Virus record (IMG/VR): IMGVR_UViG_3300002091_000055
Location: 1-38,408 of that record
From: a virus
Taxonomy: Duplodnaviria > Caudoviricetes
DNA length: 38,408 nt
Direction: 5' to 3' (one strand)
The notes below the pieces were generated by a model. It saw only the letters and a program-made list of their open reading frames with translations. It did not search any database and was not told where the DNA came from. The position numbers and the translations under genes were made by a program. Below, one piece after another: positions 1-34,506 of this stretch; within the stretch, counting starts at the first letter, position 1, and each line of letters starts with the position of its first letter.

Positions 1-97
1 AATACGGCTGGCTTGACCTGGTTGGTACTCAATGGCCGGATGAAAAAGTTCCGGCTCACGACCCTCAAGCAAATCTATCCAGCCCTGCTGGTGGGGG
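1..97. repeat. Terminal direct repeat (copy 1), identical to 38312..38408; circular-assembly overlap
   Basis: AATACGGCTGGCTTGACCTG...GCTGGTGGGGG is present at both ends; the terminase frame runs uninterrupted across the join. Confidence 0.95.
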
Positions 98-390
98 TAG
101 GTTTCCCTGTTGAGGAACGTGCGTCGAAACGACGCGAAATCCCCAATCGGTTCCCTACCCGTAGTTTTTACTTCTTTAAGAACGGCACGAGCGTTATCAA
201 CGTCCCGTTTGAACTCTGGGTGGTCGCGGCGGGAAGCCTCATACCAAGACAACGACCTGCCCACTTTTGCCAAAGCGGTAGGGTTAGTGGCACCAGTAGC
301 GATCTCAGCGAGGAACAACCGGCGGGCTTCATTGGGTGAAAGATCAGAACCAGGTTTACGACCCGACCGACCTTTCTTACCCTCAGCCAT
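1..390 (-). CDS. terL: Terminase large subunit, N-terminal part (continues across the origin into 38311..36779)
   Basis: ATG at 390-388 overlaps the upstream stop (TAATG); MAEGKKGRSGRKPGSDLSPNEARRLFLAEIATG...RETYPHQQGWIDLLEGREPELF is in frame with ORF 36779..38383, giving about 640 aa. Confidence 0.9.
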   Translation of the reverse strand, partial: MAEGKKGRSGRKPGSDLSPNEARRLFLAEIATGATNPTALAKVGRSLSWYEASRRDHPEFKRDVDNARAVLKEVKTTGREPIGDFASFRRTFLNRETYPHQQGWIDLLEGREPELFHPAIEYQPGQASRI

Positions 391-587
391 TACTTACCCT
401 TCTTAGAAACCTTCTTAACACCACTAACTTTCTTCAAACTAGGGTTAGCCTTAACAGCTTTCGGTGAAGCCTTACGAGCAGCGGAAGCCAAAATGGCTGA
501 AGCACCACTTTTAGAAATACCCTGTTTCTTAGCAATACCAGCAGCAACCTTAGCAAACCCAGGATGAACCTTTTTACCAGCCATCAC
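390..587 (-). CDS. Small Lys/Ala-rich basic protein
   Basis: 65 aa, highly basic, stop/start overlaps with both neighbours. Confidence 0.75.
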   Translation of the reverse strand: MMAGKKVHPGFAKVAAGIAKKQGISKSGASAILASAARKASPKAVKANPSLKKVSGVKKVSKKGK

Positions 588-811
588 TTGCCACCCTTAA
601 CTGACTTCTTCACAACCTTTTTAATAGGCACCGACTTCTTAACCTTCGAAACAAGCGAAACATCCTGCTTCTTATCCTGGGCAGAAGTCTTATTCATCTT
701 ATTCATCTTAGAATCAGCTTTGTTAAAAGCCGCGCGCTGAGCGGGCGTAAGCTTCTTCGTCAAAGCAGCATTCTGCTTCTTATCAGCCTTTTCATTAAAC
801 TTAACAGCCAC
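584..811 (-). CDS. Small Lys-rich basic protein, first gene of the late operon
   Basis: ORF 584..853; GTG at 811 is the more likely start (VAVKFNEKADKK...); C-terminal KGGK codons supply the RBS of the next gene. Confidence 0.65.
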   Translation of the reverse strand: MAVKFNEKADKKQNAALTKKLTPAQRAAFNKADSKMNKMNKTSAQDKKQDVSLVSKVKKSVPIKKVVKKSVKGGK

Positions 812-1190
812 GACAATCCAATCGGGTAATAGATCACTTAAAGGGTAAAACAATGTAAAAAACTAAGGGAGCAATAAACCGTGAGTAACTGCGACAAAGG
901 AGCAGTTACGAACCACTACCCTGCTTCTACGCTCAACGCTCCGAAGCACCAAGCGAAGGAGCAACAGTGAGAGCAGCTCGTCGCTACGCTCCTCACTGCT
1001 CTGTAAAACCCCTCACTATATAAACGGCGTGGAAAACACGACAACACCACGCAACGTTACCAAATTGTTATAAACTATTTTATCGAACCCTTACAAACAC
1101 TGGCCCCAGCAAATAACGAAAAAAATTTGGGGGGACATTATAATACTATTTATCCCGCCGTTTATCATCGTGGGGTCAGCCTATCGTGCG

Positions 1191-1274
1191 CTAGGTTACC
1201 GGTGGGTAACTTACGCTGCCGTAGGTTACGGTTGGGTAACTTACTGTACAGTAGGTTACTGCCAGGTAACTTAG
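1191..1274. repeat. 15-bp-periodic array of GTA(AC/GG)TTAC units separated by 6-nt spacers
   Basis: ctaGGTTAC-cggtgg-GTAACTTAC-gctgcc-GTAGGTTAC-ggttgg-GTAACTTAC-tgtaca-GTAGGTTAC-tgccag-GTAACTTAg. Confidence 0.85.
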
Positions 1275-1364
1275 ATACCAGAACTACACTTCATGTATTC
1301 TAATACAGGTATCCGGAGTTCTGTAATGTAGGTATGTGATGGGCGACACTCTGCCGGTGGGGCT

Positions 1365-1385
1365 TGTGGATAAGGTTGTGGATAA
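1365..1385 (-). promoter_or_regulatory. Two tandem consensus DnaA boxes
   Basis: TGTGGATAA (reverse complement of TTATCCACA) at 1365-1373 and 1377-1385. Confidence 0.7.
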
Positions 1386-1448
1386 CTATTTAGGGTTGTT
1401 TTAGGGTGAGCGTTATCAAACTGTTATCTTTCCAGGCGTGTTTACCTA

Positions 1449-1476
1449 TTGACACCGTTCCCCTGTTGTGTATGCT
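1449..1476 (+). promoter_or_regulatory. Housekeeping-sigma promoter of the early operon
   Basis: TTGACA-16 nt-TATGCT with TGTG just upstream of the -10, about 45 nt before the first early ATG. Confidence 0.7.
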
Positions 1477-1521
1477 TAGGGGTGTCGGGAAAGGTTCCCG
1501 CGTAATGGTTAGGGGTTAGAT

Positions 1522-1803
1522 ATGATGAAACTAGACCCGCGCGCGGTTAGCGCGATTATTCACGCCAAGACGACTAATGACGCGAGCGGTAACCCGCGCC
1601 GGTGTTTCGTTCTGCTCAATGGGGCGGGGCAGGTTCTGGCGGTGACTGATGAGGGTTATTCGGGTGATGGGGCATGGTGGCAGCTGATCCAAGACAGGGC
1701 GGACGGTAGGCACGCCCGCGACGGGGTAGAACCGTCCCCCTTTGCGGTGACCGTTACCCCCGCTGAATACCGTCGCTTGATTCGATGGGACGTAACGGCA
1801 TGA
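1522..1803 (+). CDS. Hypothetical early protein
   Basis: 93 aa ORF, preceded by GGTTAGGGG 6 nt upstream. Confidence 0.75.
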   Translation: MMKLDPRAVSAIIHAKTTNDASGNPRRCFVLLNGAGQVLAVTDEGYSGDGAWWQLIQDRADGRHARDGVEPSPFAVTVTPAEYRRLIRWDVTA

Positions 1804-1964
1804 CGCGCAAACACTTTCAAGCGGTAGCCGACGCCCTGCGGGTTAGCGATGCACCCCCCGACGCGGTTAGGGATATCGCCCTAGCCCTGGCGGATGTATT
1901 CGCGGGGCAGAATCCCCTATTTGATAGGGAGCGATTTTTGACGGCCTGCGGGGTGACACCATGA
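1800..1964 (+). CDS. Small phage protein (MTRKHF...NPLFDRERFLTACG), not in ORF track
   Basis: 54 aa, ATGA overlaps at both ends; resembles the NPxFDxxRFLxACG family of small phage proteins. Confidence 0.75.
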   Translation: MTRKHFQAVADALRVSDAPPDAVRDIALALADVFAGQNPLFDRERFLTACGVTP

Positions 1965-2086
1965 GCTTAGGGACGGGGCTAGGACTTTATGGCTTGTTCA
2001 TGGCGGGCGTTATTGTTGGAACGTCGTGGATCATTGACCGATTCCCTGCCGTGTTTGGTTATGAGGATGAGGGGGTCGAACAATGA
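1961..2086 (+). CDS. Small membrane peptide, not in ORF track
   Basis: 41 aa MSLGTGLGLYGLFMAGVIVGTSWIIDRFP..., ATGA overlaps at both ends. Confidence 0.6.
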   Translation: MSLGTGLGLYGLFMAGVIVGTSWIIDRFPAVFGYEDEGVEQ

Positions 2087-2301
2087 CGCGCCCCCTACGC
2101 CTGACTAGGCGCGGGTGGATTCTGGCAGCAATAGCAGCTCTCGCCCTAGTTTATGGGCTTAGCGTGTTGTTATCGTTCAACCGTGGCCTAGTGCCCTGCG
2201 ATGCGGTGACTTATGACACGCCTAGCACGTTCCCCGCCGGTAGTGCCGGTGCCCGTGCGTTCGATGCGGAGAATGGCGCGGGGGTTATTATCTGCCGTTA
2301 G
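2083..2301 (+). CDS. Small membrane-anchored protein
   Basis: RLTRRG followed by one hydrophobic helix. Confidence 0.7.
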   Translation: MTRPLRLTRRGWILAAIAALALVYGLSVLLSFNRGLVPCDAVTYDTPSTFPAGSAGARAFDAENGAGVIICR

Positions 2302-2394
2302 GCTCTAATCTCGCCCCCTGGCATGATATGGTCAGGGGACGGGGTTACCGGCTAAGGGTTAGCGGGTAGAATCAAATTAGGTTAGGGGTTCACA

Positions 2395-3465
2395 ATGTCA
2401 GACATCACGGCAGCTAGGGCTAGGCAACTATCTAAGGCCCTGGCGATTACTAAGCCATCACGCAATATTAGGGGCGTGAGTGTGATCGAGCTGCACGCCG
2501 ATGCATCGGGGCTAAGGGTGCAGATTAGGGATAGTTCCGGAATGTTCGGTGTAGTCACCTTGACCGATGATCCGCAGCCGGTAGCGATTCATCAACTATC
2601 ACGCGATGCCCTAGCCTTATGGTGTAAGACTCTCAAGGCTAAGGATGCACTATCGGTCACGCTTGACGCGGGTATGGTTAGCCTCTCGCGTAATGGGCTA
2701 GTGACTAGTGGCCTGGCTGCCGATATTGTGGACACGTCGGGACTAATGGACACGTCGGAAATAGGTAACGCCCTTACAGGTATCGCCGTCCCGTGGAATG
2801 AGCTACCTGCCGTGCTATTGGCTGCCGGTGACGATGATTCTCTCCCCGTCCTAACGGCGGTTAGTGTTCGATACGGGGATCAAGGTGTAGCACGCCTAGT
2901 AACTACAGATAGATACCGTATGGTGCTTACCGATGCAAACATTATGCACTATGAGAATCACGCGCTAGTGCCTGCCGCCTGGCTAACTAAGGTGACTAAG
3001 CAACTAGGCGGTGGCTTATTGGCCTTGACCGATAAGCACGCGGTCATTAGTGATCCGGCTAACCCGTTCTGGCTTATGGGAACGCGCCTGCTTGACGGTG
3101 ATTATCCGGTAGTTGATTCTCTAGTACGCGATAGCTCCCCTATCGGGCTAGTGTTTGATTCTTCCGCGCTGCGGGATGCGGTGAAACTAATCGCCCCGTC
3201 TATTGCTAAGAATAATCCGGTGATCGTTGACCTGGTTGCCGGTGTATTACGCACATTAGAGGGTGAAACTACCGTGCCTATTCCCGCCTATTCGGGCGAT
3301 AGTGACGGGCTAGTAATCGGATTCAACCCTGCCTACCTAGTGGATTCTCTCGCCGGTATCACGGGTAGCGTGCGCTTCGACCTAGATTCTGCCGGTAAGC
3401 CCGCTATTATTACTAGTGAATCAACCGCCACGACGCGGGTGCTCATGCCCGTACGCCAACGATAG
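2395..3465 (+). CDS. dnaN: DNA polymerase III beta sliding clamp-like protein
   Basis: Motifs LPVLTAV, LVTTDRYRM, RLLDGDYP, IGFNPAYLVDSL, KPAII and C-terminal VLMPVR match DnaN domains 2-3; 356 aa. Confidence 0.85.
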   Translation: MSDITAARARQLSKALAITKPSRNIRGVSVIELHADASGLRVQIRDSSGMFGVVTLTDDPQPVAIHQLSRDALALWCKTLKAKDALSVTLDAGMVSLSRNGLVTSGLAADIVDTSGLMDTSEIGNALTGIAVPWNELPAVLLAAGDDDSLPVLTAVSVRYGDQGVARLVTTDRYRMVLTDANIMHYENHALVPAAWLTKVTKQLGGGLLALTDKHAVISDPANPFWLMGTRLLDGDYPVVDSLVRDSSPIGLVFDSSALRDAVKLIAPSIAKNNPVIVDLVAGVLRTLEGETTVPIPAYSGDSDGLVIGFNPAYLVDSLAGITGSVRFDLDSAGKPAIITSESTATTRVLMPVRQR

Positions 3466-3476
3466 GGGAATAGATC

Positions 3477-3683
3477 ATGAATCAACGCAATATGGAAGAA
3501 CTTGCTGCCGTATCCTGGGATGCGAAGATGCTACTAAGCCGCCTGGGAACGCTTGATATTATGGTGACTAACGATGCCATGCCTGAGCAGTTACGGGATA
3601 GTCTGATCAATGTAATCGAGAGTGTTGCGCGGTTCACCTATCGGTCAGAGTGGGCACTAGATTCTGACCTCATGGTGGACTAA
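3477..3683 (+). CDS. Hypothetical protein
   Basis: 68 aa ORF with AGGGG RBS. Confidence 0.65.
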   Translation: MNQRNMEELAAVSWDAKMLLSRLGTLDIMVTNDAMPEQLRDSLINVIESVARFTYRSEWALDSDLMVD

Positions 3684-3780
3684 CTGAGGGTGTCGCTGCC
3701 AGGTGATGCCCTAGCCGGTAGGTTAGGGTGTCGCCTAGTGCCGATAGCCGGTGCTAATTAACAATGGTTAGGGGTAATAC

Positions 3781-3954
3781 ATGATTACGCATGAAAGAAT
3801 ACCTTATTCGAACGTCCTGATCCTGAGCTGCACCGTCACCGATGGCTCTATGGTATGGCTTGAAACTAGATCATATCAAGGGTATCCCGTGCGCGAGGCT
3901 AAGAAGATTCACCGCGACTACCTGGCACACAATGGCCTAACTATTGTGGACTAA
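3781..3954 (+). CDS. Hypothetical protein, not in ORF track
   Basis: 57 aa MITHERIPYSNVLILSC...NGLTIVD; GGTTAGGGG 6 nt upstream of the ATG. Confidence 0.7.
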   Translation: MITHERIPYSNVLILSCTVTDGSMVWLETRSYQGYPVREAKKIHRDYLAHNGLTIVD

Positions 3955-4049
3955 TCTAGCGAACTTGCCTGATGTACCGGCTGCGATGCCGGTATGTCGG
4001 GTTGGATCACTAGCATAGGGCTAGAGATACATAATGAAAGGTTAGGACA

Positions 4050-4544
4050 ATGGGATACTACGTTCACATTACATACAGTAATGCAGTAATACCGGCGGAG
4101 AATCTTCCGGCCGCGCTTGATGCGTTGCGTGAGCTTGATGCACGGGATGATCTAAAATCTGGCGGGTCGAGCGCGGGTGCTAAGTGGTTCAGTTGGATGA
4201 ACGACTTTGACCTGGCTAATGCGCCTAGCGTGGCTAGTGTGCTCGAGCGGCTAGGTTTTGATGTATCAGAAGATGAATGGGGTGGATTATCTATTGAGGG
4301 TTATGAGGATAAGACAGGTGATGAGGGAATCTTTATTCAAACATTAGCCCCATACATTGAGACAGGTTCACACGTCGAGTGGCAGGGTGAGGATGGCGAG
4401 GCTTATCGTTGGCACTTTCACCACGGCCTAATGACAACGGAATATGACCGGCGACTACCGTCCTGGCAACATACAGATAACCCTATTGAGGCTCACCTAA
4501 AACTGTCAGCTGTGTTTGCAGCAAACAAGACTAGTTTAGTCTGA
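4050..4544 (+). CDS. Hypothetical acidic protein
   Basis: 164 aa, GAAAGGTTAGGAC upstream. Confidence 0.8.
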   Translation: MGYYVHITYSNAVIPAENLPAALDALRELDARDDLKSGGSSAGAKWFSWMNDFDLANAPSVASVLERLGFDVSEDEWGGLSIEGYEDKTGDEGIFIQTLAPYIETGSHVEWQGEDGEAYRWHFHHGLMTTEYDRRLPSWQHTDNPIEAHLKLSAVFAANKTSLV

Positions 4545-4719
4545 TGCTTGGTGACATCCTTGGCGCGGCGGTGTTCATAGTGCTTGCCGTGGTGTTGCCG
4601 ATAGTGATTCATTATTTGTTTGACTAATCCTAGTGGTTTTGCTTGGTGCCCGTAGTGGGGAAGCTACGGGTATCGGGTTCGGCACTAGGCCGATATCGAA
4701 ACAATGAAAGGTTAGGACT

Positions 4720-4908
4720 ATGAATGCGAAACTAATGATGCACGACTGTCCCACACCTGTGCGGGAAGTCATGATCGAATCGGTCGATGAATGGAACACC
4801 CGCTGGAATAGTGAAATGGTGTTCAAGGTTCTTGATTTGCAAACAGGTATCCGTGTATGCGCTCATGCTAGTGAGCTTTGGCTTGAGGGTGTGAGCTGCA
4901 ATGCCTGA
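4720..4908 (+). CDS. Hypothetical protein
   Basis: 62 aa, GAAAGGTTAGGAC upstream. Confidence 0.7.
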   Translation: MNAKLMMHDCPTPVREVMIESVDEWNTRWNSEMVFKVLDLQTGIRVCAHASELWLEGVSCNA

Positions 4909-5272
4909 ACCCTATGTGGGACACCGTGAAAGCAACAGGGAATGGTGGGATTTTGCTGACTGTGGTGGCCTGAAGCCAACCTGGTGGGATACTGACATTG
5001 GCAAACAAGACCATAACCTGACCATCGAAAACCTTTACGCCATCACGATATGTATTGGCTGCCCTGTACAGAATGAATGCTTAGCCGATGCTTTACGAAA
5101 CGGCGGTGAACATAACATCAGGGCTGGTCTGACACCTTGGAACCAGACTGAACTGATCAACACGGGTTCAACTTATTCACGCCCGTTGAGGGTTTTGAAC
5201 AAACTACTAACATTGACCGATGATGTGAACACGGTGGTGACACAGGCATACGGTGTGCTTGGTGACAAATGA
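4901..5272 (+). CDS. whiB: WhiB-family transcription factor (divergent)
   Basis: WWDFADC...AITICIGCPVQNECLADAL (four Cys) then NIRAGLTP in place of G[IV]WGGLT. Confidence 0.8.
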   Translation: MPEPYVGHRESNREWWDFADCGGLKPTWWDTDIGKQDHNLTIENLYAITICIGCPVQNECLADALRNGGEHNIRAGLTPWNQTELINTGSTYSRPLRVLNKLLTLTDDVNTVVTQAYGVLGDK

Positions 5273-5445
5273 AAGCTGATGAACGTCTTGATGAGTTCAT
5301 GTTCATGCTATCCTTGAAGGAAAGTCCTGAACATATTGCACGCCAGATGGGTGTGCAACTAAAATCCATTGAAAGAATGTGGTATCGAACTAAGAAGGAG
5401 AGGCCACCGTGGGTGCAACAGAGAATGAAATCATTGAACAGCTAA
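5269..5445 (+). CDS. Small helix-turn-helix protein, not in ORF track
   Basis: 58 aa, SPEHIARQMGVQLKSIERMW HTH pattern; ATGA overlap with whiB. Confidence 0.65.
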   Translation: MKADERLDEFMFMLSLKESPEHIARQMGVQLKSIERMWYRTKKERPPWVQQRMKSLNS

Positions 5446-5675
5446 ACAAAGTGTTTGATCCAGAAGATAGACCTTTTACCATTGACAAAGGGCAGGTCAC
5501 GTTTGAAACAACCGATGGTGATACTGCCTGGTTGTTTGAGTACGATGGTCAAGTGTATGCGAGTCTATTCTCTTACCGCGACAACTCCGAAACTTGGTGG
5601 GCTGACGAGCGCGAGGTAGGCCCTTACGGTGATGCGGTTGAGGCCGTCAAACATTTGGCTGGTTGGAATGACTGA
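5409..5675 (+). CDS. Hypothetical protein
   Basis: 88 aa, GTG start with AAGGAGAGG RBS. Confidence 0.7.
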   Translation: MGATENEIIEQLNKVFDPEDRPFTIDKGQVTFETTDGDTAWLFEYDGQVYASLFSYRDNSETWWADEREVGPYGDAVEAVKHLAGWND

Positions 5676-6168
5676 AAATCAAACCGTTCCATCATGGTTG
5701 TTATTGTTGTGTGCCGGTCTTGTGGTGTTGCTGCTTGGTGAAATCCTTGTGTTGAACCGTGAGGATCAGGTGAGGCTACAATCTTTACCTAAAACCATGT
5801 TATCTTCCCAACCTGAAGCACATAAACCACACACAACACACCATCAGAGGGCACACAAGCCCGTTTCACGGTCTTATACCCGCATCCTTAACCTTTCCTC
5901 GCCTGCTAGGCGTTATGCCTTTACATTGGTTCCTGTTGAGCCACAGATGGCTTGCCTGATTATGCTTTGGGATCACGAGTCAGGCTGGAGTCCCACATCA
6001 GACAACCCCACATCGTCTGCCTACGGCATCCCACAAATCTTGGGGCTAAAAGCCAAGACGGGTAACGATTACAAGGCCCAGGTTCGAGCAGGTTTATCGT
6101 ACATCAAACATCGTTATGGTTCACCGTGTTCAGCTTGGGTGTTCTGGCAGAATCACAGGTGGTACTGA
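5668..6168 (+). CDS. Membrane-anchored lytic transglycosylase (SLT-like)
   Basis: N-terminal TM helix; CLIMLWDHESGW...NPTSSAYGIPQ...GLSYIKHRYGSPCSAW; start 5668 preferred over 5629. Confidence 0.85.
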   Translation: MTENQTVPSWLLLLCAGLVVLLLGEILVLNREDQVRLQSLPKTMLSSQPEAHKPHTTHHQRAHKPVSRSYTRILNLSSPARRYAFTLVPVEPQMACLIMLWDHESGWSPTSDNPTSSAYGIPQILGLKAKTGNDYKAQVRAGLSYIKHRYGSPCSAWVFWQNHRWY

Positions 6169-6377
6169 TGGGCTGGTCGTTTGCGCTTGCTGCCGGATCA
6201 ATGACCGGACTATGGATTGCTGGGAAGCGACCCTTGCAAGGCTGGCTAATACTATTGGGCATGGAAGTATTGTGGTGCTGGTACTCGGTAGCCACCAAAC
6301 AGTACGGGCTTGGTGTCCTATGCTTAGCCTACGGAATAATCTACTTTGCCAATACTGTTAGGGAGTTAAAAAAATGA
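6168..6377 (+). CDS. Small multi-pass membrane protein
   Basis: MGWSFALAAG..., three short hydrophobic segments, TGATG overlap with the upstream gene. Confidence 0.7.
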   Translation: MGWSFALAAGSMTGLWIAGKRPLQGWLILLGMEVLWCWYSVATKQYGLGVLCLAYGIIYFANTVRELKK

Positions 6378-7645
6378 AACTAGTTTCCCTATTCGCAGGT
6401 GTAGGTGGCTTTGACATCGCAGCTGAACGGGCAGGTATTGAACCAAGTGTCATGTGTGAAATTGATCCACAAGCAGCAGGTGTTTTGAAACACCGTTTCC
6501 CAAACACAACCCTCATCAACGATGTGAAAGAGGTAACAGGTGACAAACTCAGAGAACTTGGACTTGACCCAAGGGCAACAATTATCACTGGCGGGTTTCC
6601 CTGCCAAGACCTCTCCATTGCAGGAAAGCAAGCAGGACTCGAAGGTGGCGAAAGGTCGTCGCTTTTCTTTGAAATTGTGCGAATCCTGCGGGAGTTCAAT
6701 CCCCAGTGGTTCATCCTTGAAAACGTCCCAGGCTTGCTGTCATCCAAAGGGGGACGGGACATGGGAATCGTCATCGGGAGTTTGGCTGAACTCGGGTACA
6801 GTTTCTCCTGGAGAATCTTGGACGCGCAAAACTTTGGAGTCCCCCAACGTCGCCGTCGTGTCTTCATTGTCGGACATCTTGGAGCCGATGCGACCAGAGC
6901 TGAGCAAGTATTGTTTGAGTCCGAGGGCGGCCGAAGGGATCTTGAGGCGGGCCACGCGCAGGGGAAAGACATTGCCGGAGACCTTGCACAAAGCACTGAC
7001 AGCAATAGTTTCAGGATGTTAGGTTTTGGTGATTACGAACCAGACGACACTGCGTCAGCGTTGAAGGCTCGCGATTACAAGGATGCTACCTACCTCGTTG
7101 TGCCCTACGTGACTTCACGTAGGGCACAAACCGACCAAGACGATGAGACCTGGGTGGAAAGCAACGTCACCCCAACGCTGAACAGGATGGACAACACCGG
7201 CGAATCTCGTGCCACTGTCCTAATGATTGACGGCACACGAGTCGGCGATGTTCGTATCACCGAAGGCCAAACCATGCAGACCGTGATAAGTCGATGGGGT
7301 ACTGGTGGCAACAACGTACCAATGGTTGAGACCAACACGCAACGTATTGATGTTTTTGATAGACAGTTTGGTTCAAATGCACAAGTGTTTAACAATATTT
7401 CTCCTACATTAAAGCATAGTCAGCAGTCACCCTCGGTGGCTTTACCAACAATTGTTCGCCGGTTGACACCAATGGAATGTGAACGGCTGCAAGGATTCCC
7501 CGATGGCTGGTCAGCGCAACGCATAGATCACAAGAAGGGCGTTGTTGTCGATCAAGCTGACTCGTCCAGGTACAAGCAAATGGGCAACGCTGTCGCTGTC
7601 CCTGTCGTTGAATGGATTATGAATCGAATTATGCAACAGTCATAA
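6374..7645 (+). CDS. DNA (cytosine-5)-methyltransferase
   Basis: Motifs I SLFAGVGG, IV GGFPCQDLS, VI ENVPGL, VIII QRRRRVFIVG, IX RRLTPMECERLQGFP, X YKQMGNAV. Confidence 0.95.
   Translation: MKLVSLFAGVGGFDIAAERAGIEPSVMCEIDPQAAGVLKHRFPNTTLINDVKEVTGDKLRELGLDPRATIITGGFPCQDLSIAGKQAGLEGGERSSLFFEIVRILREFNPQWFILENVPGLLSSKGGRDMGIVIGSLAELGYSFSWRILDAQNFGVPQRRRRVFIVGHLGADATRAEQVLFESEGGRRDLEAGHAQGKDIAGDLAQSTDSNSFRMLGFGDYEPDDTASALKARDYKDATYLVVPYVTSRRAQTDQDDETWVESNVTPTLNRMDNTGESRATVLMIDGTRVGDVRITEGQTMQTVISRWGTGGNNVPMVETNTQRIDVFDRQFGSNAQVFNNISPTLKHSQQSPSVALPTIVRRLTPMECERLQGFPDGWSAQRIDHKKGVVVDQADSSRYKQMGNAVAVPVVEWIMNRIMQQS
6540..7022 (+). CDS. Overprinted ORF in the +1 frame of the methyltransferase (beta-polypeptide-like)
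   Basis: 160 open codons; C-terminus SSLSDILE...KYCLSPRAAEGILRRATRRGKTLPETLHKAL looks like real protein; start uncertain. Confidence 0.55.
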   Translation: MTNSENLDLTQGQQLSLAGFPAKTSPLQESKQDSKVAKGRRFSLKLCESCGSSIPSGSSLKTSQACCHPKGDGTWESSSGVWLNSGTVSPGESWTRKTLESPNVAVVSSLSDILEPMRPELSKYCLSPRAAEGILRRATRRGKTLPETLHKALTAIVSGC

Positions 7646-7738
7646 ACTATGCTATTGTTTAATTGTTGCCGGAACTCACCATCCCCCCCGTTGGTGAACC
7701 AACGGCACACCACCCTAATGAGCACGGGGTGGAAGTAC

Positions 7739-7780
7739 AAGACCCGTCAGCTACCCTAACCGGCTGGCGGGTCTTTACTT
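7739..7780 (+). terminator. Terminator-like hairpin between the convergent early and replication operons
   Basis: 14-bp stem AAGACCCGTCAGCT/GGCTGGCGGGTCTT with two G-U pairs, 9-nt loop ACCCTAACC, short T-rich tail. Confidence 0.75.
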
Positions 7781-8465
7781 ATTCAACATCACGTCTGGTT
7801 TGCACCACAGCCTGAGAGTTAGACATCACCCTGCGTGAACCAATACCATCCCAAGGTGTTTCACCACCAGTAAGATCAATGATCCTTTCAATGGCACGAT
7901 CAACACGGGCCTTAAGCGCGTGAACAGTTATTTGCAAGTCTATTGCAGCAAGTTCCTCAGGCATCTCATGCACATACAATAATTGCAAAGCTGCTTGCTG
8001 ATCAGTTGACAGTTTAGGTATGGCTTTAAGAATATCTATTGCCATTGCAGGAAGATTGTTACCGGTGCTTGGCTCCCGTGGTGGTTTACGGCCACCCTCA
8101 GGTTCACCGCGCAAAGTTTCACGCCACGAACCATCAAACACAATGGGCAACAGTTCTCGAATGATACCTTTGTTGAAGAACCATTCATCGGTGTGATGGT
8201 AACCTAATGATTGGGCTTTCATTTTCCGGCAAAATCGTTCACTTTGTTTGTGCATACGTTTGTTCATAATCCAAATGTTTGTTTTAAGAACTTTCGGATC
8301 TTCAACGCTAAGCCACTCATCAACACGCCTATGGTTGTGGTAGCCCCACTCAATCAGATCGGATCGAATATCATCAGCCTCAACATAACCCGAATACTTT
8401 CGGGCAAGACTGATAGCAACAGGGTAAGCGTGCTGCAAATAGTCTGGGTGCAAATGGGTGGTCAT
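7779..8465 (-). CDS. RNA polymerase sigma-70-like factor / sigma region 4 HTH protein
   Basis: Region 2-like AISLARKY...EADDIRSDLIEW; region 4-like LSTDQQAALQLLY...LAAIDLQITVHALKARVDRAIERI. Confidence 0.7.
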   Translation of the reverse strand: MTTHLHPDYLQHAYPVAISLARKYSGYVEADDIRSDLIEWGYHNHRRVDEWLSVEDPKVLKTNIWIMNKRMHKQSERFCRKMKAQSLGYHHTDEWFFNKGIIRELLPIVFDGSWRETLRGEPEGGRKPPREPSTGNNLPAMAIDILKAIPKLSTDQQAALQLLYVHEMPEELAAIDLQITVHALKARVDRAIERIIDLTGGETPWDGIGSRRVMSNSQAVVQTRRDVE

Positions 8466-9217
8466 TTTGCACCACGCATCTCAGTACCACGAAGCTGAGA
8501 CTTACCCTTAGACCATGAACCACAGTCACGGCACTGGTATCTCTGATACACCGCAGTGGTGGTGTATGCCTGACCACGTTTGGTTAGCCTGCTGCCACCA
8601 CAGCGAGGGCAACAGCCCTCAGCCCCACCGTAAAGCTCATGCGATGGGTGGTCTTTGATCCACGAACCGAGCCGGTCATACAGTTTCTCAGTTAATCGAA
8701 CATCTTGGATATTGTATTTTTTCATCAACGCCCAGGCTTTCACGTCACCAGCCATGCACTTGACCCACAGATCGTGCCCTGTGTGCGGTGTCTTTTGTCC
8801 GATACCCAATTGATCGGAAACGTGTTGCAGCTTGTTTGATGGGAAACGGAATTGCGACTTGACCACCTTGAGCAAGTCCACGTTCCTGAACGGGCTTGGC
8901 GGGTTCATACCAGCAAGAATAAATTCTCGCTGAAAATGTTTGATATCAAACGTGACACCATTGTAAGTAACAACAATGTCGGCCTCATCAAGCAACCTAT
9001 GCGCCTGCTTCACCATTTTGGCATGACCATCGTGGTGGTCTGAATAAAACTCTACGTTCCTCTCGCCGTACCACTTAGCGGCGAAAGAGATCATGGACGT
9101 GGTGTCCATCAGTTGCGATAAGGATACGTTCTGCTGCCACAATCCCCAAACGTGAGCTAGGTTTGGACTGGTCTCTATGTCCGTGATTAGGATGCGTGGC
9201 TTGTTTGTTTCCGGCAT
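8462..9217 (-). CDS. RNase H-fold (DEDD) 3'-5' exonuclease with C-terminal zinc ribbon
   Basis: ITDIETSP, TYNGVTFD, YNIQDV; CPRCG...YQCRDCG; start at 9217 (MPETNK) preferred. Confidence 0.85.
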   Translation of the reverse strand: MPETNKPRILITDIETSPNLAHVWGLWQQNVSLSQLMDTTSMISFAAKWYGERNVEFYSDHHDGHAKMVKQAHRLLDEADIVVTYNGVTFDIKHFQREFILAGMNPPSPFRNVDLLKVVKSQFRFPSNKLQHVSDQLGIGQKTPHTGHDLWVKCMAGDVKAWALMKKYNIQDVRLTEKLYDRLGSWIKDHPSHELYGGAEGCCPRCGGSRLTKRGQAYTTTAVYQRYQCRDCGSWSKGKSQLRGTEMRGAK

Positions 9218-9273
9218 CAGATGCCTTCCGTTAAGTAGCCCCCAGGTGCAGGGCAAATCGTTGTGTAGTTGGG

Positions 9274-9726
9274 TTAAATGTCGTCAATGATTTCAATGTT
9301 GGCAATGTAACCAACAATATCAACCAAGTTATCTTTCTTTTCAAGGTTCGCTTCACGACTAATCTTTTGCAAGATGTTCAGGAAACAAACATCCCTGGCA
9401 TCAAGGTCAAAATCAAGATCGTATTTGCGGTTCAGGTAAGCAGTCCAAAGTTCTGCTGTGCAACCATGATTATCCAACGGGTGACCGTAAGTGTCTTGCC
9501 TATCACCGTTAACAATCTCATCAGCTTCACGCAAAACCTTTGACTGAACTGCCCTGACTTCTCGAATGTTCCATTCGTGTGGGTCAACTTCACGTTTCAG
9601 CTTTGGACTGGTGGTACCTGAACTAAAACCTTGCCACTTGGCTGATCCGATTTTACTACCTGAAACCCAAGATCGCGGAGAAGGTTCAGCACCTGCTCCC
9701 ATTCCGTTCGAGTCACTCACAATCAT
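9274..9726 (-). CDS. DUF6378-like protein (all-alpha nucleotide pyrophosphatase-like)
   Basis: VLREADEIVNGDRQDTYGHP...AELWTAYL...KISR...DNLVDIVGY. Confidence 0.65.
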   Translation of the reverse strand: MIVSDSNGMGAGAEPSPRSWVSGSKIGSAKWQGFSSGTTSPKLKREVDPHEWNIREVRAVQSKVLREADEIVNGDRQDTYGHPLDNHGCTAELWTAYLNRKYDLDFDLDARDVCFLNILQKISREANLEKKDNLVDIVGYIANIEIIDDI

Positions 9727-9740
9727 CCGTCCTTTCGTTA

Positions 9741-10454
9741 TTAGAAGGGTGGTTCATCTTCATCAACTGGTGGCTTGAGTAAGTCCAAGACGTACTGCGG
9801 CCCTTGCTTTAACACTGTGCTATTCAAATCTTCACCTGCTGGCAAGTAAATAATCCTTGCCCAAGGTAGTGCGTCAATGATCCTGTTAGCCAAACGCAGC
9901 CCAGGGTTCTCGCCGTTCTCCTTCACATCATTATCAGCCATGATGTATATATTCTCAAAGCCTTCAAAACAGCGCGTGAAGTAATCCTTCCACATTTCCA
10001 CACCCGCAACACCAACAGATGCAATACCAACCACCGAATCCATAACGAGGGCATCAAGTTCACCCTCACAAATGGCAATGGCAGTATCCGAGTTGTGAAA
10101 CGCACGCACATTGAACAAGTGTGGTCTTTGACCCGCTGGCACTAGGTACTTTGGTTGCCTGTGTTCGTCAAGAAACCGAAACTTGAAACCCACCGGCCCT
10201 GTTGGGGTTAGGTAGGGAATAGACAGCATCCCCTGGTATGGTTCATGTCCTGGTTCAGGCACTTCCACGCTTCCAAGCCGGTAGTTGCTTATGGCTTGCT
10301 CGTCCAGTCCCCTTTCTAGCAGATAAGAATGAGCCTTCTCGGACAACTGCTTCTCGTAAGCTTTGGTAGCCCTCTCCTGTGATTTCTTCGACAAGCCTGA
10401 CGGCAGTATTGAAGTCACAACACTCCTGTTCCCTAACAATAGATATGGCATCAC
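9741..10454 (-). CDS. DNA primase, catalytic TOPRIM part
   Basis: YLLERGL, SIPYLTPTG, KFRFL, ICEGELDAL, MADND, GEDLNS; true start may lie about 20 codons downstream. Confidence 0.85.
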   Translation of the reverse strand: MMPYLLLGNRSVVTSILPSGLSKKSQERATKAYEKQLSEKAHSYLLERGLDEQAISNYRLGSVEVPEPGHEPYQGMLSIPYLTPTGPVGFKFRFLDEHRQPKYLVPAGQRPHLFNVRAFHNSDTAIAICEGELDALVMDSVVGIASVGVAGVEMWKDYFTRCFEGFENIYIMADNDVKENGENPGLRLANRIIDALPWARIIYLPAGEDLNSTVLKQGPQYVLDLLKPPVDEDEPPF

Positions 10455-10617
10455 CCTTGATGCCGCAGGTGAAGCAGTAAAACAATCCTTTATCTGGGTT
10501 CACGGTTGCACTTGCGTGCTTATCACCGTGAAACGCACATTTGACGGACTTGTTTCCACCGTGATCTGGTACACGGTCAAACCCGTAATGGGTTAGAACA
10601 CTAGTTATTACGCTCAT
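10255..10617 (-). CDS. DNA primase, CHC2 zinc-binding part
   Basis: CAFHGDKHASA...FYCFTCGIKGDAISIVREQE. Confidence 0.85.
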   Translation of the reverse strand: MSVITSVLTHYGFDRVPDHGGNKSVKCAFHGDKHASATVNPDKGLFYCFTCGIKGDAISIVREQECCDFNTAVRLVEEITGEGYQSLREAVVREGSFLSARKGTGRASHKQLPAWKRGSA

Positions 10618-10990
10618 CTAGCCCACTCATCAAATGCAATAGTTGGTGCAATGGGATCACACACATAGCGTCAAGGGTGCTGCGTTGCCTCATCTTACGA
10701 ACAACAACACCAAACACCCTGCCCCTGTTCCCTCTAACCTCAGACCAGTTTCCTGCTTCGAGTTCTGCCTGGCGTAACCAGTTGGCCCACTCAGGTGTCT
10801 TAACATCCTTAGCCTCAAGCACCAGTACTGTGTGGCCAAGGTCAATGTGAAGATCGCCTTCATCCTTGGCACCGGTCTGGGCAGTACGTTCCACTGCCCA
10901 ACCATTCTGTGCCATACCCACCCAGCCACGAATGTGACCGAGAAGGTCTGTTTCAAACTTGGTTCCTTTACGCTTGTTCGCTGAACTCAT
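10601..10990 (-). CDS. Holliday junction resolvase (PD-(D/E)XK type)
   Basis: KRKGTKFE...ERTAQTGAKDEGDL...VLEAKD...WLRQAELEA. Confidence 0.75.
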   Translation of the reverse strand: MSSANKRKGTKFETDLLGHIRGWVGMAQNGWAVERTAQTGAKDEGDLHIDLGHTVLVLEAKDVKTPEWANWLRQAELEAGNWSEVRGNRGRVFGVVVRKMRQRSTLDAMCVIPLHQLLHLMSGLDERNN

Positions 10991-11847
10991 ACCACACTAT
11001 CCCAAAACTGTTGAAGTGCTGGTGCCAGTTGCACCGCTGGTGCAGATAAAGAAGATTGGTAATCCATTGCGTCCTGAATCTGCATCCGTGGTGCATCCAC
11101 AAACAGGGACACATGGCTACGGGCTTGTGCATCGGCTGGCCCTGAACGGTTCTTAACAGTGGCAACCTTAAGTTCCCTAGCCATCTCATCGTAAGCCAAG
11201 GTGAGGATTACTTCTGGGAGCTGCGAGACTTTACCAAGGATCGCTTTACGCGGGGGGCATTCGCCAGGATTGGACGTGTTCTCACTGACGTGGTGGAGCA
11301 GGATGATCCCTGCTTCCGTTGAACGGGCAACGTGGTGCAATGCCCGACTGATCTCACGCATACCGGCATACTCATCCAAATGTTCGGCCACTACATTGTA
11401 GAGGGAATCAATAACAATGATCTCTGGTGGGCAACCCCACATTTCGGTGAACGCCATCGTCTCAAGATCAATGTCGTCCAACGTGGGTGAAGGGTCAAAG
11501 CACCAACGAATGTTTTGCAAACCAGTAACCTGATCCACATAGTAACCAGCCCCACCATTACTGATACCAGCTTCAACAATGTCCACCTGATCGCCTGTCA
11601 ACATGGCCGCGACACGGTTCACAATGGTGGAAGCATCCGTGTCTGCACTAAAAAACAGGGTAGGAATGTTGTGCTGTGCCACATACCACAATGCAAGCAA
11701 AGTTTTCATGTTGCCTGGTGCTGCCGCGATCATGGTCACTTGTCCACGTCGAAGCCTCACGCCTGCTTGTTTCAAACTTGGTGTCAAGTCAGGCAGTGGC
11801 CTGCCTGACTCACCACTAAGCATGATGGTTTGGGCTAAAGACTTCAT
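10987..11847 (-). CDS. DnaB-like replicative helicase (ATPase domain only)
   Basis: Walker A AAPGNMKT, FFSAD, Walker B IIVID, LLHH, KNRSGP. Confidence 0.85.
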   Translation of the reverse strand: MKSLAQTIMLSGESGRPLPDLTPSLKQAGVRLRRGQVTMIAAAPGNMKTLLALWYVAQHNIPTLFFSADTDASTIVNRVAAMLTGDQVDIVEAGISNGGAGYYVDQVTGLQNIRWCFDPSPTLDDIDLETMAFTEMWGCPPEIIVIDSLYNVVAEHLDEYAGMREISRALHHVARSTEAGIILLHHVSENTSNPGECPPRKAILGKVSQLPEVILTLAYDEMARELKVATVKNRSGPADAQARSHVSLFVDAPRMQIQDAMDYQSSLSAPAVQLAPALQQFWDSVV

Positions 11848-12014
11848 GCCTTATGCCACCAGCGTTTAGGAACTGGCCGCCCACCTGTTTGTACAAAGGT
11901 CACAAGGGCTTGACGGATAACATTTGATGCTGTCGTTTTTTTCTCGTTAGCAAGATCAACAATGGCATCCCAAATCTCATCGTTGATACGAACATTGCGA
12001 ATTGGTGTGTTCAC
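11844..12014 (-). CDS. Ribbon-helix-helix DNA-binding protein, not in ORF track
   Basis: 56 aa (M)NTPIRNVRINDEIWDAIVDLANEKKTTASNVIRQALVTFV...; overlaps both neighbours by 4 nt. Confidence 0.75.
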   Translation of the reverse strand: MNTPIRNVRINDEIWDAIVDLANEKKTTASNVIRQALVTFVQTGGRPVPKRWWHKA

Positions 12015-16234: not shown

Positions 16235-16276
16235 GGATACCCTCTCAGAAGCCTGAGGATGCCCTGTAACGAAAGA

Positions 16277-16316
16277 AACCCCCCTGCCTAGTGGATTACA
16301 CCAGACAAGGGGGTTC
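16277..16316. terminator. Hairpin between convergent genes, probable terminator
   Basis: AACCCCCCTGCCTAGTG/CACCAGACAAGGGGGTT imperfect stem. Confidence 0.55.
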
Positions 16317-25744: not shown

Positions 25745-25947
25745 CTTACTTGTTGTAGTTTCCGTAACCCGCAACCACCACAGGGGAATAGGTGACTGGC
25801 TGTTACTACCGGGCTTATGACGCTCCACAGGGCCGGTCGGTCTGCGAGAGGTTTAATGGGCTAGGGGTTTGCACCACGCCTAGCGATCTGATACATTATG
25901 TTTAAGAAGCGGGTAACACTGATAGGGGAAGATCAGTGTTATCCGCT
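25745..25947 (-). ncRNA. Structured RNA leader upstream of scaffold/capsid genes
   Basis: Long hairpin, GCAA-capped hairpin, candidate H-type pseudoknot and a UUCCCC-loop hairpin. Confidence 0.45.
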
Positions 25948-26997
25948 TTAGTACAAAGCTTTTTGGTCTTGTGCCAAAGAACCAGCCCTGATACCTGAAG
26001 TACCAGAGAACGATGCACGTTCCTGACTGGCCAACATCTTCTTACGGGCAGTGGCGGCAGCAGCACCAGCAGTATTGAACTGTTCAGACGCTGCCTGTTC
26101 AATACCATACGGGTCACCACCATAAATCTTTGACAAAGTGTCCCCACGTTGAGCATTCTCAGAAGCTTGAGCAAACCCTGAAGCAGCTTGAGCGTAACTA
26201 ACATTCGGGTTAACGTTGCCAATTTCTTGTGCCAAAGAACCACTAACCTTGTTACCCAACCCCTGATCTTGGGCTGCACCAAGAACCGTAGCCTTGCGGA
26301 TCTGGTTATTGATAACAGGTTCAGCAACTTTAGGATCAAGGAAAGCTTCAGTGAGGTGCCCAGAGTCAACACCATACAGTTTCAGGTACTGATCCCTAAC
26401 GGATTGTGGTGTGGAAGAAACAAAATCTGATGCGGCCTTAGCCCTATCATTAACTTCATTAGCCGAAACACCTGCACCAATAATTTTAGCAAGGTAACTT
26501 TGGCTCATGAACTGATCAGAAGTGATGCCATATTGTCTAAGGTTTTGACGCATCTGATCTTCGGTTGCTATGTACTGACCCTCAGACAACACATTTTGAC
26601 CGGCTGCTCGAAGTGCCTCATTACCAGCAAAACGATTTTTGTACTGGCTGGTTTCTTTAAGTTTAAGATTAACAGTATCAGCATCAGTGTAACCCTGCTG
26701 AATGTAACCATTGATAATATCAATAAGTGATTGGCCTGATGAGTCAGGAACATTCAAACCGTATTGCGTGAACGTATCTTTAAGAAGATCAAAAGCAGAC
26801 TTTTGATCGCTAGTTAAAGTCGTTGCAGAAGTACCAGGTGTAGTCGGTGTAGTGGTCGTAGGTGGTGTGGATGTTGGTACAGCATTCCCTTGAGAAGCAT
26901 TATACCTAGCATAAGCCAACTGAGTTGCAGCATCACCAACAACATTATTTTTAGCATAATAATCAAGCCACGCTTGAACTTGAGGAGTCTCAGCCAC
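25948..26997 (-). CDS. Putative internal virion protein
   Basis: 349 aa, helical, Ala/Gln-rich, in the morphogenesis operon. Confidence 0.55.
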   Translation of the reverse strand: MAETPQVQAWLDYYAKNNVVGDAATQLAYARYNASQGNAVPTSTPPTTTTPTTPGTSATTLTSDQKSAFDLLKDTFTQYGLNVPDSSGQSLIDIINGYIQQGYTDADTVNLKLKETSQYKNRFAGNEALRAAGQNVLSEGQYIATEDQMRQNLRQYGITSDQFMSQSYLAKIIGAGVSANEVNDRAKAASDFVSSTPQSVRDQYLKLYGVDSGHLTEAFLDPKVAEPVINNQIRKATVLGAAQDQGLGNKVSGSLAQEIGNVNPNVSYAQAASGFAQASENAQRGDTLSKIYGGDPYGIEQAASEQFNTAGAAAATARKKMLASQERASFSGTSGIRAGSLAQDQKALY

Positions 26998-34030: not shown

Positions 34031-34506
34031 TATTGGTACGCTTTCAAATACATAACAATGTTTCGAAGTGTTTGTGAAGATTCAGCCGAGTTAGCTCGTT
34101 CTTGAATCAACGGTAGATAAGGCAAAAGTTTTTGAATATCAGCATCAGCTGTCAAGGGTTGTGCTGGGGCACCAGGCCCAGGACCAGCGTTAACACCAGC
34201 AGTGACCGGTTCATCAGGACGCTGTGTGGGGTCTGTAAGAGGTGTTGGTGGTGTCATTGGGGTAACAGGTGCAGAAGGTTGCGCTGGGCCGTTAGAAGGC
34301 AACACAGGGCTTCCTGATGGCATACCATCTTGAGCCATAGTTGCACCACCCTGAATACTGTGCATTTCCTGTCGATCACCATAATTGGCAGCAGGTACAT
34401 CTCTAATAGGTTGGCCAGGACCACCATCAGTGCGTTGCGATAGTGACCCTGGCCCTGAAACGGGGGCAGGGTTGGTGGGTTTGCGGTATCCACCTTGTTG
34501 CGCCAT
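34030..34506 (-). CDS. Pro/Gly-rich hypothetical virion-module protein
   Basis: GGYRKPTNPAPVSGPGSLSQRTDGGPGQ...TQRPDEPVTAG. Confidence 0.75.
   Translation of the reverse strand: MAQQGGYRKPTNPAPVSGPGSLSQRTDGGPGQPIRDVPAANYGDRQEMHSIQGGATMAQDGMPSGSPVLPSNGPAQPSAPVTPMTPPTPLTDPTQRPDEPVTAGVNAGPGPGAPAQPLTADADIQKLLPYLPLIQERANSAESSQTLRNIVMYLKAYQ

What the first reader, a model, noticed from the sequence alone, without database searches (positions are those of the whole stretch)
2306..4722. Four early-gene leaders share one RNA architecture without sequence identity
Seen: each has a 15-17 bp G-U-rich hairpin (2306-2347, 3701-3736, 3967-4002, 4641-4678), then a short hairpin (2346-2368, 3736-3756, 4006-4028, 4679-4693), an A-rich linker, the GGTTAGG motif and ATG. 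The first gene keeps only a short hairpin (1486-1500). The many G-U pairs work only as plus-strand RNA, and there is no U tail. Known: T7 early mRNA is cut at RNase III stems between genes. Inference: a repeated processing/stabilising leader that splits the early transcript into separately translated units.
Basis: partly seen in the sequence, partly recalled or inferred. Interest (0 to 1): 0.75.

Follow-up and report, generated by a model that had tools for sequence, protein, structure and literature searches.

The report
Two-state RNA spacers between phage genes
A freshwater phage that likely infects actinobacteria separates its early gene blocks with a repeated two-hairpin RNA spacer, shared with cultured Streptomyces phages, whose small hairpin can alternatively pair with the upstream stop codon, so the spacer likely folds first into a long stem that a host enzyme would cut and then refolds to cap the freed message.

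Summary
The four leaders are real: long hairpin, abutting short hairpin, ribosome site (z -2.8 to -5.0). They are diverged paralogues, not unrelated sequences. Seven homologous copies covary (11 of 23 pairs). The layout recurs in 27 of 61 related loci and in cultured Streptomyces Beephvirinae phages, almost only on the early strand (26/137 early versus 1/204 late spacers).

New point: the strand at the upstream stop codon pairs with the short hairpin's loop. Own pairs beat swapped pairs (0/20,000 permutations; 3/20,000 in cultured phages), and the loop triplet tracks the stop codon. This gives two exclusive folds: a roughly 22-bp interrupted stem, or two hairpins.

Best reading: a T7-like processing signal, likely cut by RNase III, then refolding so each product ends in a hairpin. 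One relative has a hammerhead ribozyme in the same slot. No cut is shown and no RNA data exist.

Rivals: PeSL-like terminator/promoter (full promoter in 4 of 34 clusters; no U-tract) and ribosome-controlled coupling. No Rfam match. This scan has noted similar hairpin spacers on other DNA; the stop-codon pairing was not in the notes I saw.

The parts
1449..1476 (+). Main early promoter: -35 TTGACA, 16 by the scan tool, -10 TATGCT; the only clear promoter of the early block
   Evidence: 10 of 12 consensus matches. In related contigs the listed changes fall in the spacer (1455-1468) and at 1474, none in the -35 hexamer (274 rows not shown)
1486..1524 (+). First leader: short hairpin 1486-1500 near the predicted start site, GGTTAGG 1507-1513, ATG 1522. 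No intact long hairpin and no upstream gene
   Evidence: model R1 hit E 0.009; kept in L111 and L120
1522..2301 (+). First gene block: four small overlapping genes (1522-1803, 1800-1964, 1961-2086, 2083-2301), function unknown
2294..2397 (+). Spacer L1: stop TAG 2299-2301; long hairpin 2306-2347 with an extended -10-like motif at 2324-2332; short hairpin 2346-2368; ribosome site; ATG 2395. Alternative fold pairs 2294-2303 with 2350-2359
   Evidence: orthologues in L002, L011 and L120
2395..3683 (+). DNA polymerase III beta-clamp-like gene (2395-3465) plus a 68-aa gene (3477-3683)
   Evidence: phrog_947 E 1e-23; PF02767
3681..3783 (+). Spacer L2: stop TAA 3681-3683; long hairpin 3701-3736; short hairpin 3736-3756 (loop 3744-3748); ATG 3781. 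Alternative fold pairs 3688-3699 with 3738-3749. Weak promoter-like pair at 3696-3723
3781..3954 (+). 57-aa gene of unknown function
3951..4052 (+). Spacer L3: stop TAA 3952-3954; long hairpin 3967-4002; short hairpin 4006-4028; ATG 4050. The stop region can pair with the short hairpin (nascent fold) or with 4039-4045 over the ribosome site
4050..4627 (+). 164-aa gene (phrog_38862) plus a 27-codon ORF 4544-4627; this block is absent from relative L011
4625..4722 (+). Spacer L4: stop TAA 4625-4627; long hairpin 4641-4678; short hairpin 4679-4693; ATG 4720. Alternative fold pairs 4629-4635 with 4683-4689 (7 Watson-Crick pairs)
   Evidence: orthologues in L002, L011, L111 and L120
7739..7775 (.). 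Terminator-like hairpin where rightward and leftward genes meet; the likely end of the rightward unit and a contrast to the U-less spacers
   Evidence: the matching hairpin in L002 and L011 carries a U-run

Best explanation
The four spacers are copies of one two-state RNA module between early gene blocks that likely acts as an mRNA processing signal, most likely cut by host RNase III. Shown by sequence and comparison: the layout (stop codon, about 7 nt, long hairpin, abutting short hairpin, ribosome site), its covariation, its restriction to the early strand, and complementarity between the stop-codon strand and the short hairpin's loop. Predicted by folding: as RNA emerges, that pairing extends the long hairpin into an interrupted stem of about 22 bp (fold A); the short hairpin (fold B) takes over when the stop-codon strand is removed, covered or never transcribed. 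Inferred, untested: RNase III nicks fold A near the junction; the upstream piece keeps a 3' hairpin; the downstream piece refolds into a 5'-terminal hairpin, which releases it from the upstream piece and leaves its ribosome site available. The first gene gets the same 5' hairpin directly from the promoter, and the minority of spacers with an internal promoter would too. As a by-product the repeats act as joints where gene blocks are gained and lost.
For: Covariation: 11 of 23 pairs change on both sides in 7 copies, 0/500 shuffles, slid controls 27-40% paired versus 94%. Spread: 61 elements in 27 of 61 loci; 26 of 137 early-strand spacers versus 1 of 204 late-strand and 0 of 25 antisense; 12 of 20 annotated spacers in FlowerPower, WRightOn and ZooBear. 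Stop-to-loop pairing: own -5.34 versus swapped -3.66 kcal/mol over 34 clusters, 0/20,000 permutations, while two control targets are null (3695/5000, 3295/5000); cultured phages -6.88 versus -4.16, 3/20,000. The anti-stop triplet follows the stop codon: CTA in 14 of 20 TAG clusters, TCA in 5 of 8 TGA, TTA in 2 of 6 TAA. The first spacer of the three cultured phages changes both partners together. Fold A is favoured in nascent RNA in 31 of 34 clusters versus 47% with swapped flanks; fold B exceeds 0.5 in 11 of 34 free, 26 of 34 with the stop region blocked, 27 of 34 after a simulated cut. Fold A has a median of 22 bp, at least 20 bp in 41 of 46. RNase III substrates typically have two helical turns, and internal loops limit cutting to one strand, leaving a protective 3' hairpin (PMC1540722, introduction and passages); T7 R1.1 is such a stem between early genes (PMC6121014, passages). 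A type II hammerhead (38.3 bits, cut-off 37) fills the first early spacer of relative L074; its cut site lies between two hairpins, giving the same product shape. RNase III and RNase J genes are present in the Nanopelagicus-labelled and Lentzea genomes that hold terminase relatives. Most elements lack both a promoter and a U-tract, so read-through is needed.
Against: No RNA end, cut or expression is shown. The scan required long stems of at least 11 bp, so part of the size match to RNase III is built in. Stems are GC-rich (380 of 669 pairs) and show no conserved UA/UG distal-box register, whereas E. coli RNase III prefers those boxes; the host enzyme's rules are unknown. Which fold wins in full-length RNA depends on the flank included: free fold-B probability for L2 was 0.10 or 0.62 and for L3 1.0 or 0.12 in two runs. 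L1 favours fold B even when free (0.79-0.84). The fold-A helix covaries less than the hairpins in the 7 close copies (75% paired, 2 double changes, 308/500 shuffles for that count; score 3/500). In window L2 and L4 the pairing strand starts a few bases after the stop, not on it. 5' stem-loops did not stabilise mRNA in M. smegmatis (PMC11728522, abstract). Only 1 hammerhead was found in 39 distinct loci scanned with Rfam. The host is not known.
Confidence: 0.52

Rival explanations
1. PeSL-like punctuation without cutting. The long hairpin is a leaky U-less terminator, pause site or 3' decay barrier, an overlapping promoter restarts transcription, and the short hairpin is the 5' end of the new transcript.
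For: A full -35/-10 pair overlaps the long hairpin in 4 of 34 clusters, with the predicted start at the short hairpin; a pattern search found 9 such stretches (2 in the contig of L092, 1 in that of L061). The first window promoter has the same geometry. L1 has an extended -10-like motif kept in altered form in L002 and L011; L2 has a weak pair. PeSL stem-loops overlap promoters and terminate in reporters (PMC2839356, passages). U-less terminators were reported in the phiC31 early region (title only, in a reference list).
Against: 30 of 34 clusters lack a full promoter, as do window L3 and L4 and the early spacers folded in the three cultured phages. No U-tract, and purified mycobacterial RNA polymerase does not stop at U-less hairpins (PMC3993855, abstract). 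This reading does not explain the stop-to-loop pairing.
Confidence: 0.2
2. Translation-sensing switch. A ribosome finishing the upstream gene covers the stop-codon strand, flips the RNA to fold B and frees the downstream ribosome site (translational coupling by unfolding), or gates the cut.
For: Pairing begins sharply at -1 of the stop codon (probability 0.18 at -2, 0.56 at -1; 0.29 and 0.65 in cultured phages). Blocking the stop region raises fold B from 11 to 26 of 34. In the window's close group the stop context also pairs with the GGTTAG motif (own pairing stronger than 25-29 of 29 late stop contexts), and L3 ribosome-site access rises from 0.30-0.36 to 0.69-0.85. Coupling by unfolding over about 50 nt is known (PMC12548453, passages).
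Against: Across 46 elements the stop region does not prefer its own ribosome site (7102/10,000). Mean access rises only from 0.61 to 0.68. The first gene carries GGTTAGG with no stop to pair with. The sharp edge may only mark where coding constraint ends.
Confidence: 0.15
3. Protein- or polymerase-binding RNA signal (put- or nut-like antitermination, or a site for a phage regulator) in which the short-hairpin loop is the binding site.
For: Two abutting hairpins repeated along an early transcript; the loop is AU(A/G)G(G/C) in all 7 close copies.
Against: Across the family the loop sequence follows the upstream stop context instead of a fixed motif. No Rfam match. The put comparison is recalled, not tested.
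Confidence: 0.07
4. DNA-level cassette joints (attC-like hairpins or simple recombination repeats); the RNA folds are incidental.
For: Relatives gain or lose genes at the spacers: breaks at 1525, 2397, 3725-3775 (part of the spacer duplicated around 420 inserted bases) and 4720, and loss of the L3 block in L011.
Against: The stems are much weaker as DNA and differ by strand. 119 G-U pairs versus 5 A-C mismatches, though selected on the plus strand. No integrase among the ORFs scanned. Breaks also fall at a plain junction (2083).
Confidence: 0.06

Closest known systems
RNase III processing signals of phage T7 early mRNA (R1.1 as the example; PMC6121014 passages, PMC1540722 abstract, introduction and passages)
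   Same: An interrupted stem of about two turns between early genes of a podovirus-type phage; a one-strand cut would leave a 3' hairpin on the upstream piece.
   Different: The host is an actinobacterium; the lower stem includes or touches the upstream stop codon and is exclusive with a short hairpin that would cap the downstream piece; no cut is shown; no shared box register. I saw no such refolding described for R1.1 in the passages read.
PeSL (promoter-early stem-loop) cassettes of T4-type phages (PMC2839356 passages; PMC4122927 parts 1-2 of 3)
   Same: Repeated stop-to-start modules with a G-U-containing stem-loop and a ribosome site in the variable early region, acting as gene-swap joints; some members have a promoter overlapping the stem.
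   Different: A promoter defines PeSLs but is complete in only 4 of 34 clusters here and in at most 2 of the 4 window spacers (weak). Two abutting hairpins with an alternative fold; termination untested.
Hammerhead ribozymes flanking genes in prophages (Rfam RF02276; PMC3088659 passages)
   Same: Proposed to cut long phage transcripts into gene-length mRNAs; one occupies the same slot in relative L074 and would leave hairpins on both products.
   Different: The window's spacers have no hammerhead core and no Rfam match; they would need a protein nuclease.
SAS/ESAS repeats of Cluster K mycobacteriophages (PMC3203893 passages)
   Same: A conserved ribosome-site motif before non-structural genes, about half with an upstream imperfect inverted repeat; function unknown.
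   Different: ESAS arms keep a 17-bp sequence consensus; here stem sequence varies while pairing is kept, and there is a second hairpin.

Membership tests
T7-type RNase III processing signal | Lies between genes of a polycistronic early transcript | tested here: met
   one clear promoter, four internal spacers; early-strand bias 26/137 versus 1/204. A single transcript is inferred, not observed
T7-type RNase III processing signal | Interrupted double helix of about two turns | tested here: met
   predicted nascent stem median 22 bp, at least 20 bp in 41 of 46; 23-26 bp in the window. The scan demanded at least 11 bp
T7-type RNase III processing signal | Distal/proximal box base-pair preferences | tested here: inconclusive
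   no conserved UA/UG register, GC-rich stems; the rules come from the E. coli enzyme and the exact register was not modelled
T7-type RNase III processing signal | Host encodes RNase III | tested here: inconclusive
   present in 3 of 3 genomes tested among 9 holding terminase relatives; the true host is unknown and the other bins carry unrelated labels
T7-type RNase III processing signal | RNase III-dependent cleavage at a defined site | not testable with these tools
   needs end mapping or enzyme assay; no RNA holder listed
PeSL cassette | Sigma70-type -35/-10 promoter in each unit | tested here: not met
   4 of 34 clusters; window L3 and L4 have none, L1 and L2 are partial
PeSL cassette | Stem-loop plus ribosome site from stop codon to start codon, repeated in the variable early region | tested here: met
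PeSL cassette | Gene gain and loss at the units | tested here: met
   breaks also occur at a plain junction (2083)
PeSL cassette | Stem-loop terminates transcription | not testable with these tools
   no U-tract; needs a reporter or in vitro assay
Hammerhead or other Rfam family | Match to the covariance model or catalytic core | tested here: not met
   no match at E<=5 in window 1-8000
Integron attC site | Cognate tyrosine integrase and paired inner boxes | tested here: not met
   no integrase among 50 ORFs scanned; inner boxes not seen by eye; the attC features are recalled
SAS/ESAS | Sequence-conserved 17-bp inverted repeat and 13-bp start motif | tested here: not met
   stem sequences vary with compensation; the motif differs from the one in PMC3203893

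The most novel reading that the evidence does not exclude
The spacer is a stop-codon-sensing RNA switch: the ribosome finishing one gene melts the lower stem and so decides whether the message is cut and the next gene released or translated. That would tie processing of each early gene block to translation of the one before, across a whole family of actinobacterial podoviruses, with hammerhead ribozymes as the unregulated alternative.
Probability: 0.2. Interest if true: 0.82.

Novelty: new variant of a known kind. Interest (0 to 1): 0.58.

Why it matters
Early regions of actinophages are strings of small unknown genes that swap freely, and how such genes get their own expression signals is poorly described. 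A self-contained spacer that supplies the stop codon, a cut signal, end caps and a ribosome site would make each block portable. The stop-to-loop pairing gives a precise, mutable handle. The same module exists in cultured Streptomyces phages (FlowerPower, WRightOn, ZooBear), and Streptomyces rnc and rnj mutants are published (PMC12096830), so the idea can be tested directly. It could also define natural RNase III substrates for actinobacteria and serve as an operon-tuning part.

Tried and rejected
Rfam: no match in window 1-8000 at E<=5 or in 10 loci and 7 loci at cut-off; 1 hammerhead in 16 loci; only a tRNA above cut-off in 3 cultured-phage loci. DNA search of named phages with window 1-12000 found nothing. 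No RNA holder listed for 1400-5000; the four runs laid are DNA contigs, so ends and strand could not be seen.

Eight loci from more distant phages that share only the 164-aa gene (L003-L010; 4 scanned, 4 near-duplicates skipped) gave 1 architecture hit and no model hit in the 3 searched. L021 was a chance motif match in an unrelated phage. L020 starts inside the spacer.

'Every spacer is a promoter' was rejected (4 of 34). 'The stop region pairs with the ribosome site family-wide' was rejected. A pseudoknot using both folds at once was rejected by reasoning: the loop would be fully paired with no linker left. A tRNA-like or RNase P reading was considered; no closed junction is conserved. A telomere-like reading of GGTTAGG was dropped: 5 of 7 early copies are ribosome-site motifs. 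A crude hammerhead-core pattern search of early strands gave 3 hits that did not look like ribozymes and missed the permuted L074 one.

Script limits: one search chose some inner pairs wrongly, which probably explains most of the 7 clusters that never reach fold B. One search set the L4 stop one base early; one search corrected it. Clusters were single-linkage at 72% similarity and remain related, so permutation counts are not true probabilities. Loci L104 and L106-L110 were picked by a promoter pattern and entered the scan. TerL loci with under about 1.3 kb upstream and duplicate loci were left out.

Literature: ten searches found no description of this module. The phiC31 terminator paper was not held. 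The supplements of PMC10690425 (10,006 viral candidate RNAs) and PMC5737381 were not opened and could contain it.
Full report
Context. The window is a whole 38.4-kb virus record with direct terminal repeats. WhiB, a sigma-like gene and a beta-clamp-like gene and a terminase 45% identical to those of Streptomyces Beephvirinae podoviruses (29 of 31 strong hits) point to an actinobacterial host. Sequencing runs holding it are freshwater metagenomes. The rightward block starts at one clear promoter (1449-1476) and runs to a terminator-like hairpin at 7739-7775. I call its first part 'early' by position and gene content; timing is not shown.

Observation. GGTTAGG occurs 7 times against 0.29 expected. 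No long stem has a U-tract. The copies are diverged paralogues: 5 of 6 pairs align better than all 200 shuffles, and a model from L2-type copies recovers L1 and the first leader but not window L3 or L4. Strand bias beyond composition holds for L2 and L3 only.

Relatives. Close relatives (clamp 74-77% identical; L002, L011, L120) carry five to eight copies. Seven alignable copies show 94% pairing and 11 of 23 pairs changed on both sides, above all 500 shuffles and all slid controls. A scan anchored on stop codons found 61 elements in 27 of 61 loci, most with terminases about 50% identical. The layout appears in 26 of 137 early-strand spacers, 1 of 204 late-strand spacers and 0 of 25 antisense spacers. 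It fills 12 of 20 annotated spacers of 52-132 nt in three cultured phages; several of the 8 misses show the same layout with more bulges. Two Lentzea loci show similar spacers by eye.

The second fold. The strand at or just after the upstream stop codon is complementary to the short hairpin's loop region. Over 34 clusters, own pairs average -5.34 kcal/mol against -3.66 for swapped pairs (0 of 20,000 permutations); two control targets show nothing. The cultured phages, not used to form the idea, give -6.88 against -4.16 (3 of 20,000); the anti-stop triplet is present in 7 of 12. The loop triplet follows the stop: CTA in 14 of 20 TAG clusters, TCA in 5 of 8 TGA, TTA in 2 of 6 TAA. The first spacer of FlowerPower, WRightOn and ZooBear changes both partners together. 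Pairing starts sharply one base before the stop. In the seven close copies this helix is weaker: 75% paired, 2 double changes.

Folding predicts that this pairing extends the long hairpin into an interrupted stem (fold A; median 22 bp) in nascent RNA for 31 of 34 clusters, against 47% with swapped flanks. The short hairpin (fold B) wins in 11 of 34 when free, 26 of 34 with the stop region blocked and 27 of 34 after a simulated cut. For single window spacers the free-state winner changes with the flank length used, so I claim two competing folds, not their ratio. In L2-type copies the last three bases of the long stem are shared with the short stem, and those positions are invariant or nearly so. 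That would place a fully paired 5' end right at the junction.

Mechanism. Most spacers have neither promoter nor U-tract, and mycobacterial polymerase needs a U-tract to stop (PMC3993855, abstract), so the transcript likely reads through. Fold A has the size and interruption of RNase III substrates, where an internal loop restricts cutting to one strand and leaves a protective 3' hairpin (PMC1540722); T7 R1.1 is the model case (PMC6121014). After a cut, fold B would free the downstream piece and cap its 5' end; RNase III products are RNase J targets in Streptomyces (PMC12096830, passages). RNase III genes are present in 3 of 3 and RNase J in 2 of 2 actinobacterially labelled genomes tested; these are not proven hosts. 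A type II hammerhead sits five bases after the stop codon in the first early spacer of L074, with a hairpin on each side of its cut site, while other spacers of that genome carry hairpin pairs. Hammerheads flanking prophage genes are published (PMC3088659, passages). It is 1 case in 39 distinct loci scanned. I looked for it after reading earlier notes of this scan.

Against. There is no RNA evidence. No RNase III box register is visible and the stems are GC-rich. 5' stem-loops did not stabilise mRNA in M. smegmatis (PMC11728522, abstract); their stabilising role in E. coli I saw only as reference titles (PMC3997798). Four of 34 clusters carry a full promoter over the long hairpin, placed so that transcription would start at the short hairpin, which supports a PeSL-like role for those copies (PMC2839356, PMC4122927). 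In the window's close group the stop context can also cover the ribosome site, most clearly at L3, but this does not hold family-wide. The stop codon may lie in the stem simply because a compact, swappable module begins where coding constraint ends.

Gene exchange. Related contigs break at 1525, 2397, 3725-3775 (a 420-base insert flanked by a duplicated part of the spacer) and 4720. L011 lacks the L3 block, and L002, L011 and L120 have extra genes after L2. A break also falls at the plain junction 2083, so the spacers are favoured joints at most, not exclusive ones.

Verdict. This is a real, family-wide structured RNA with no Rfam match. It works most like T7 early processing signals and is laid out like PeSLs, but fails the PeSL promoter test and is unproven as an RNase III site. 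The general idea has been noted by this scan on other genomes. The covarying stop-codon/loop switch and its presence in cultured, testable phages are what this window adds. New variant of a known kind; interest 0.58. The actinobacterial -10 pattern TAnnnT, the extended -10, attC, put and DnaA-box labels and the ribosome footprint length (9-12 nt past the stop) are recalled, not from a call.

Noticed in passing
window 1150-4750: Sharp composition island: CTAG 7.6-fold enriched, CCA 0.17-fold and AAA 0.25-fold versus the rest. CCA is depleted on the coding strand in all three frames while TGG is not (observed/expected 0.30 versus 0.88), and CTA is the main Leu codon (36 of 97). Early CTAG exceeds late in 29 of 32 relatives and early CCA is lower in 24 of 32; the three cultured phages show no CCA loss. 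Could reflect avoidance of a host RNase or a strand-specific site; unexplained.
   Followed up: partly
window 1187-1276: Three 30-nt tandem units, each with an 8-bp inverted repeat around 6 bases, in the non-coding gap between terminase-side genes and the early promoter; similar units in L011 and L120. Operator-, origin- or packaging-like.
   Followed up: partly
window 1364-1385: Two nearby TGTGGATAA copies resembling DnaA boxes (label recalled), upstream of the early promoter in a phage that encodes a beta-clamp-like protein.
   Followed up: no
L074 5814-5754 (minus strand): Type II hammerhead ribozyme above the Rfam cut-off in the first early spacer of a terminase relative; activity untested.
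   Followed up: partly
L010 3097-3126, 6318-6347, 7631-7674; L006 2380-2411: A different repeated module in unrelated phages: a hairpin followed by a conserved TTTGTGTTG-containing stretch before genes.
   Followed up: no
L149 5038-5139, L150 4841-4942, L151 5392-5496: In all three cultured phages the last early spacer holds a conserved long imperfect stem that ends just before the ribosome site and differs from the two-hairpin module.
   Followed up: no
window 7098-7129: Perfect 14-bp inverted repeat inside the DNA methyltransferase gene.
   Followed up: no
window 16276-16316, 25906-25949, 34413-34454: Other long hairpins (17-18 bp) in the late region, probably terminators or late-gene spacers.
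   Followed up: no
L160, L161: Lentzea genome loci with a 37%-identical terminase show early-type spacers in which the stop region pairs with a downstream short hairpin, suggesting prophage-like relatives use the module.
   Followed up: partly
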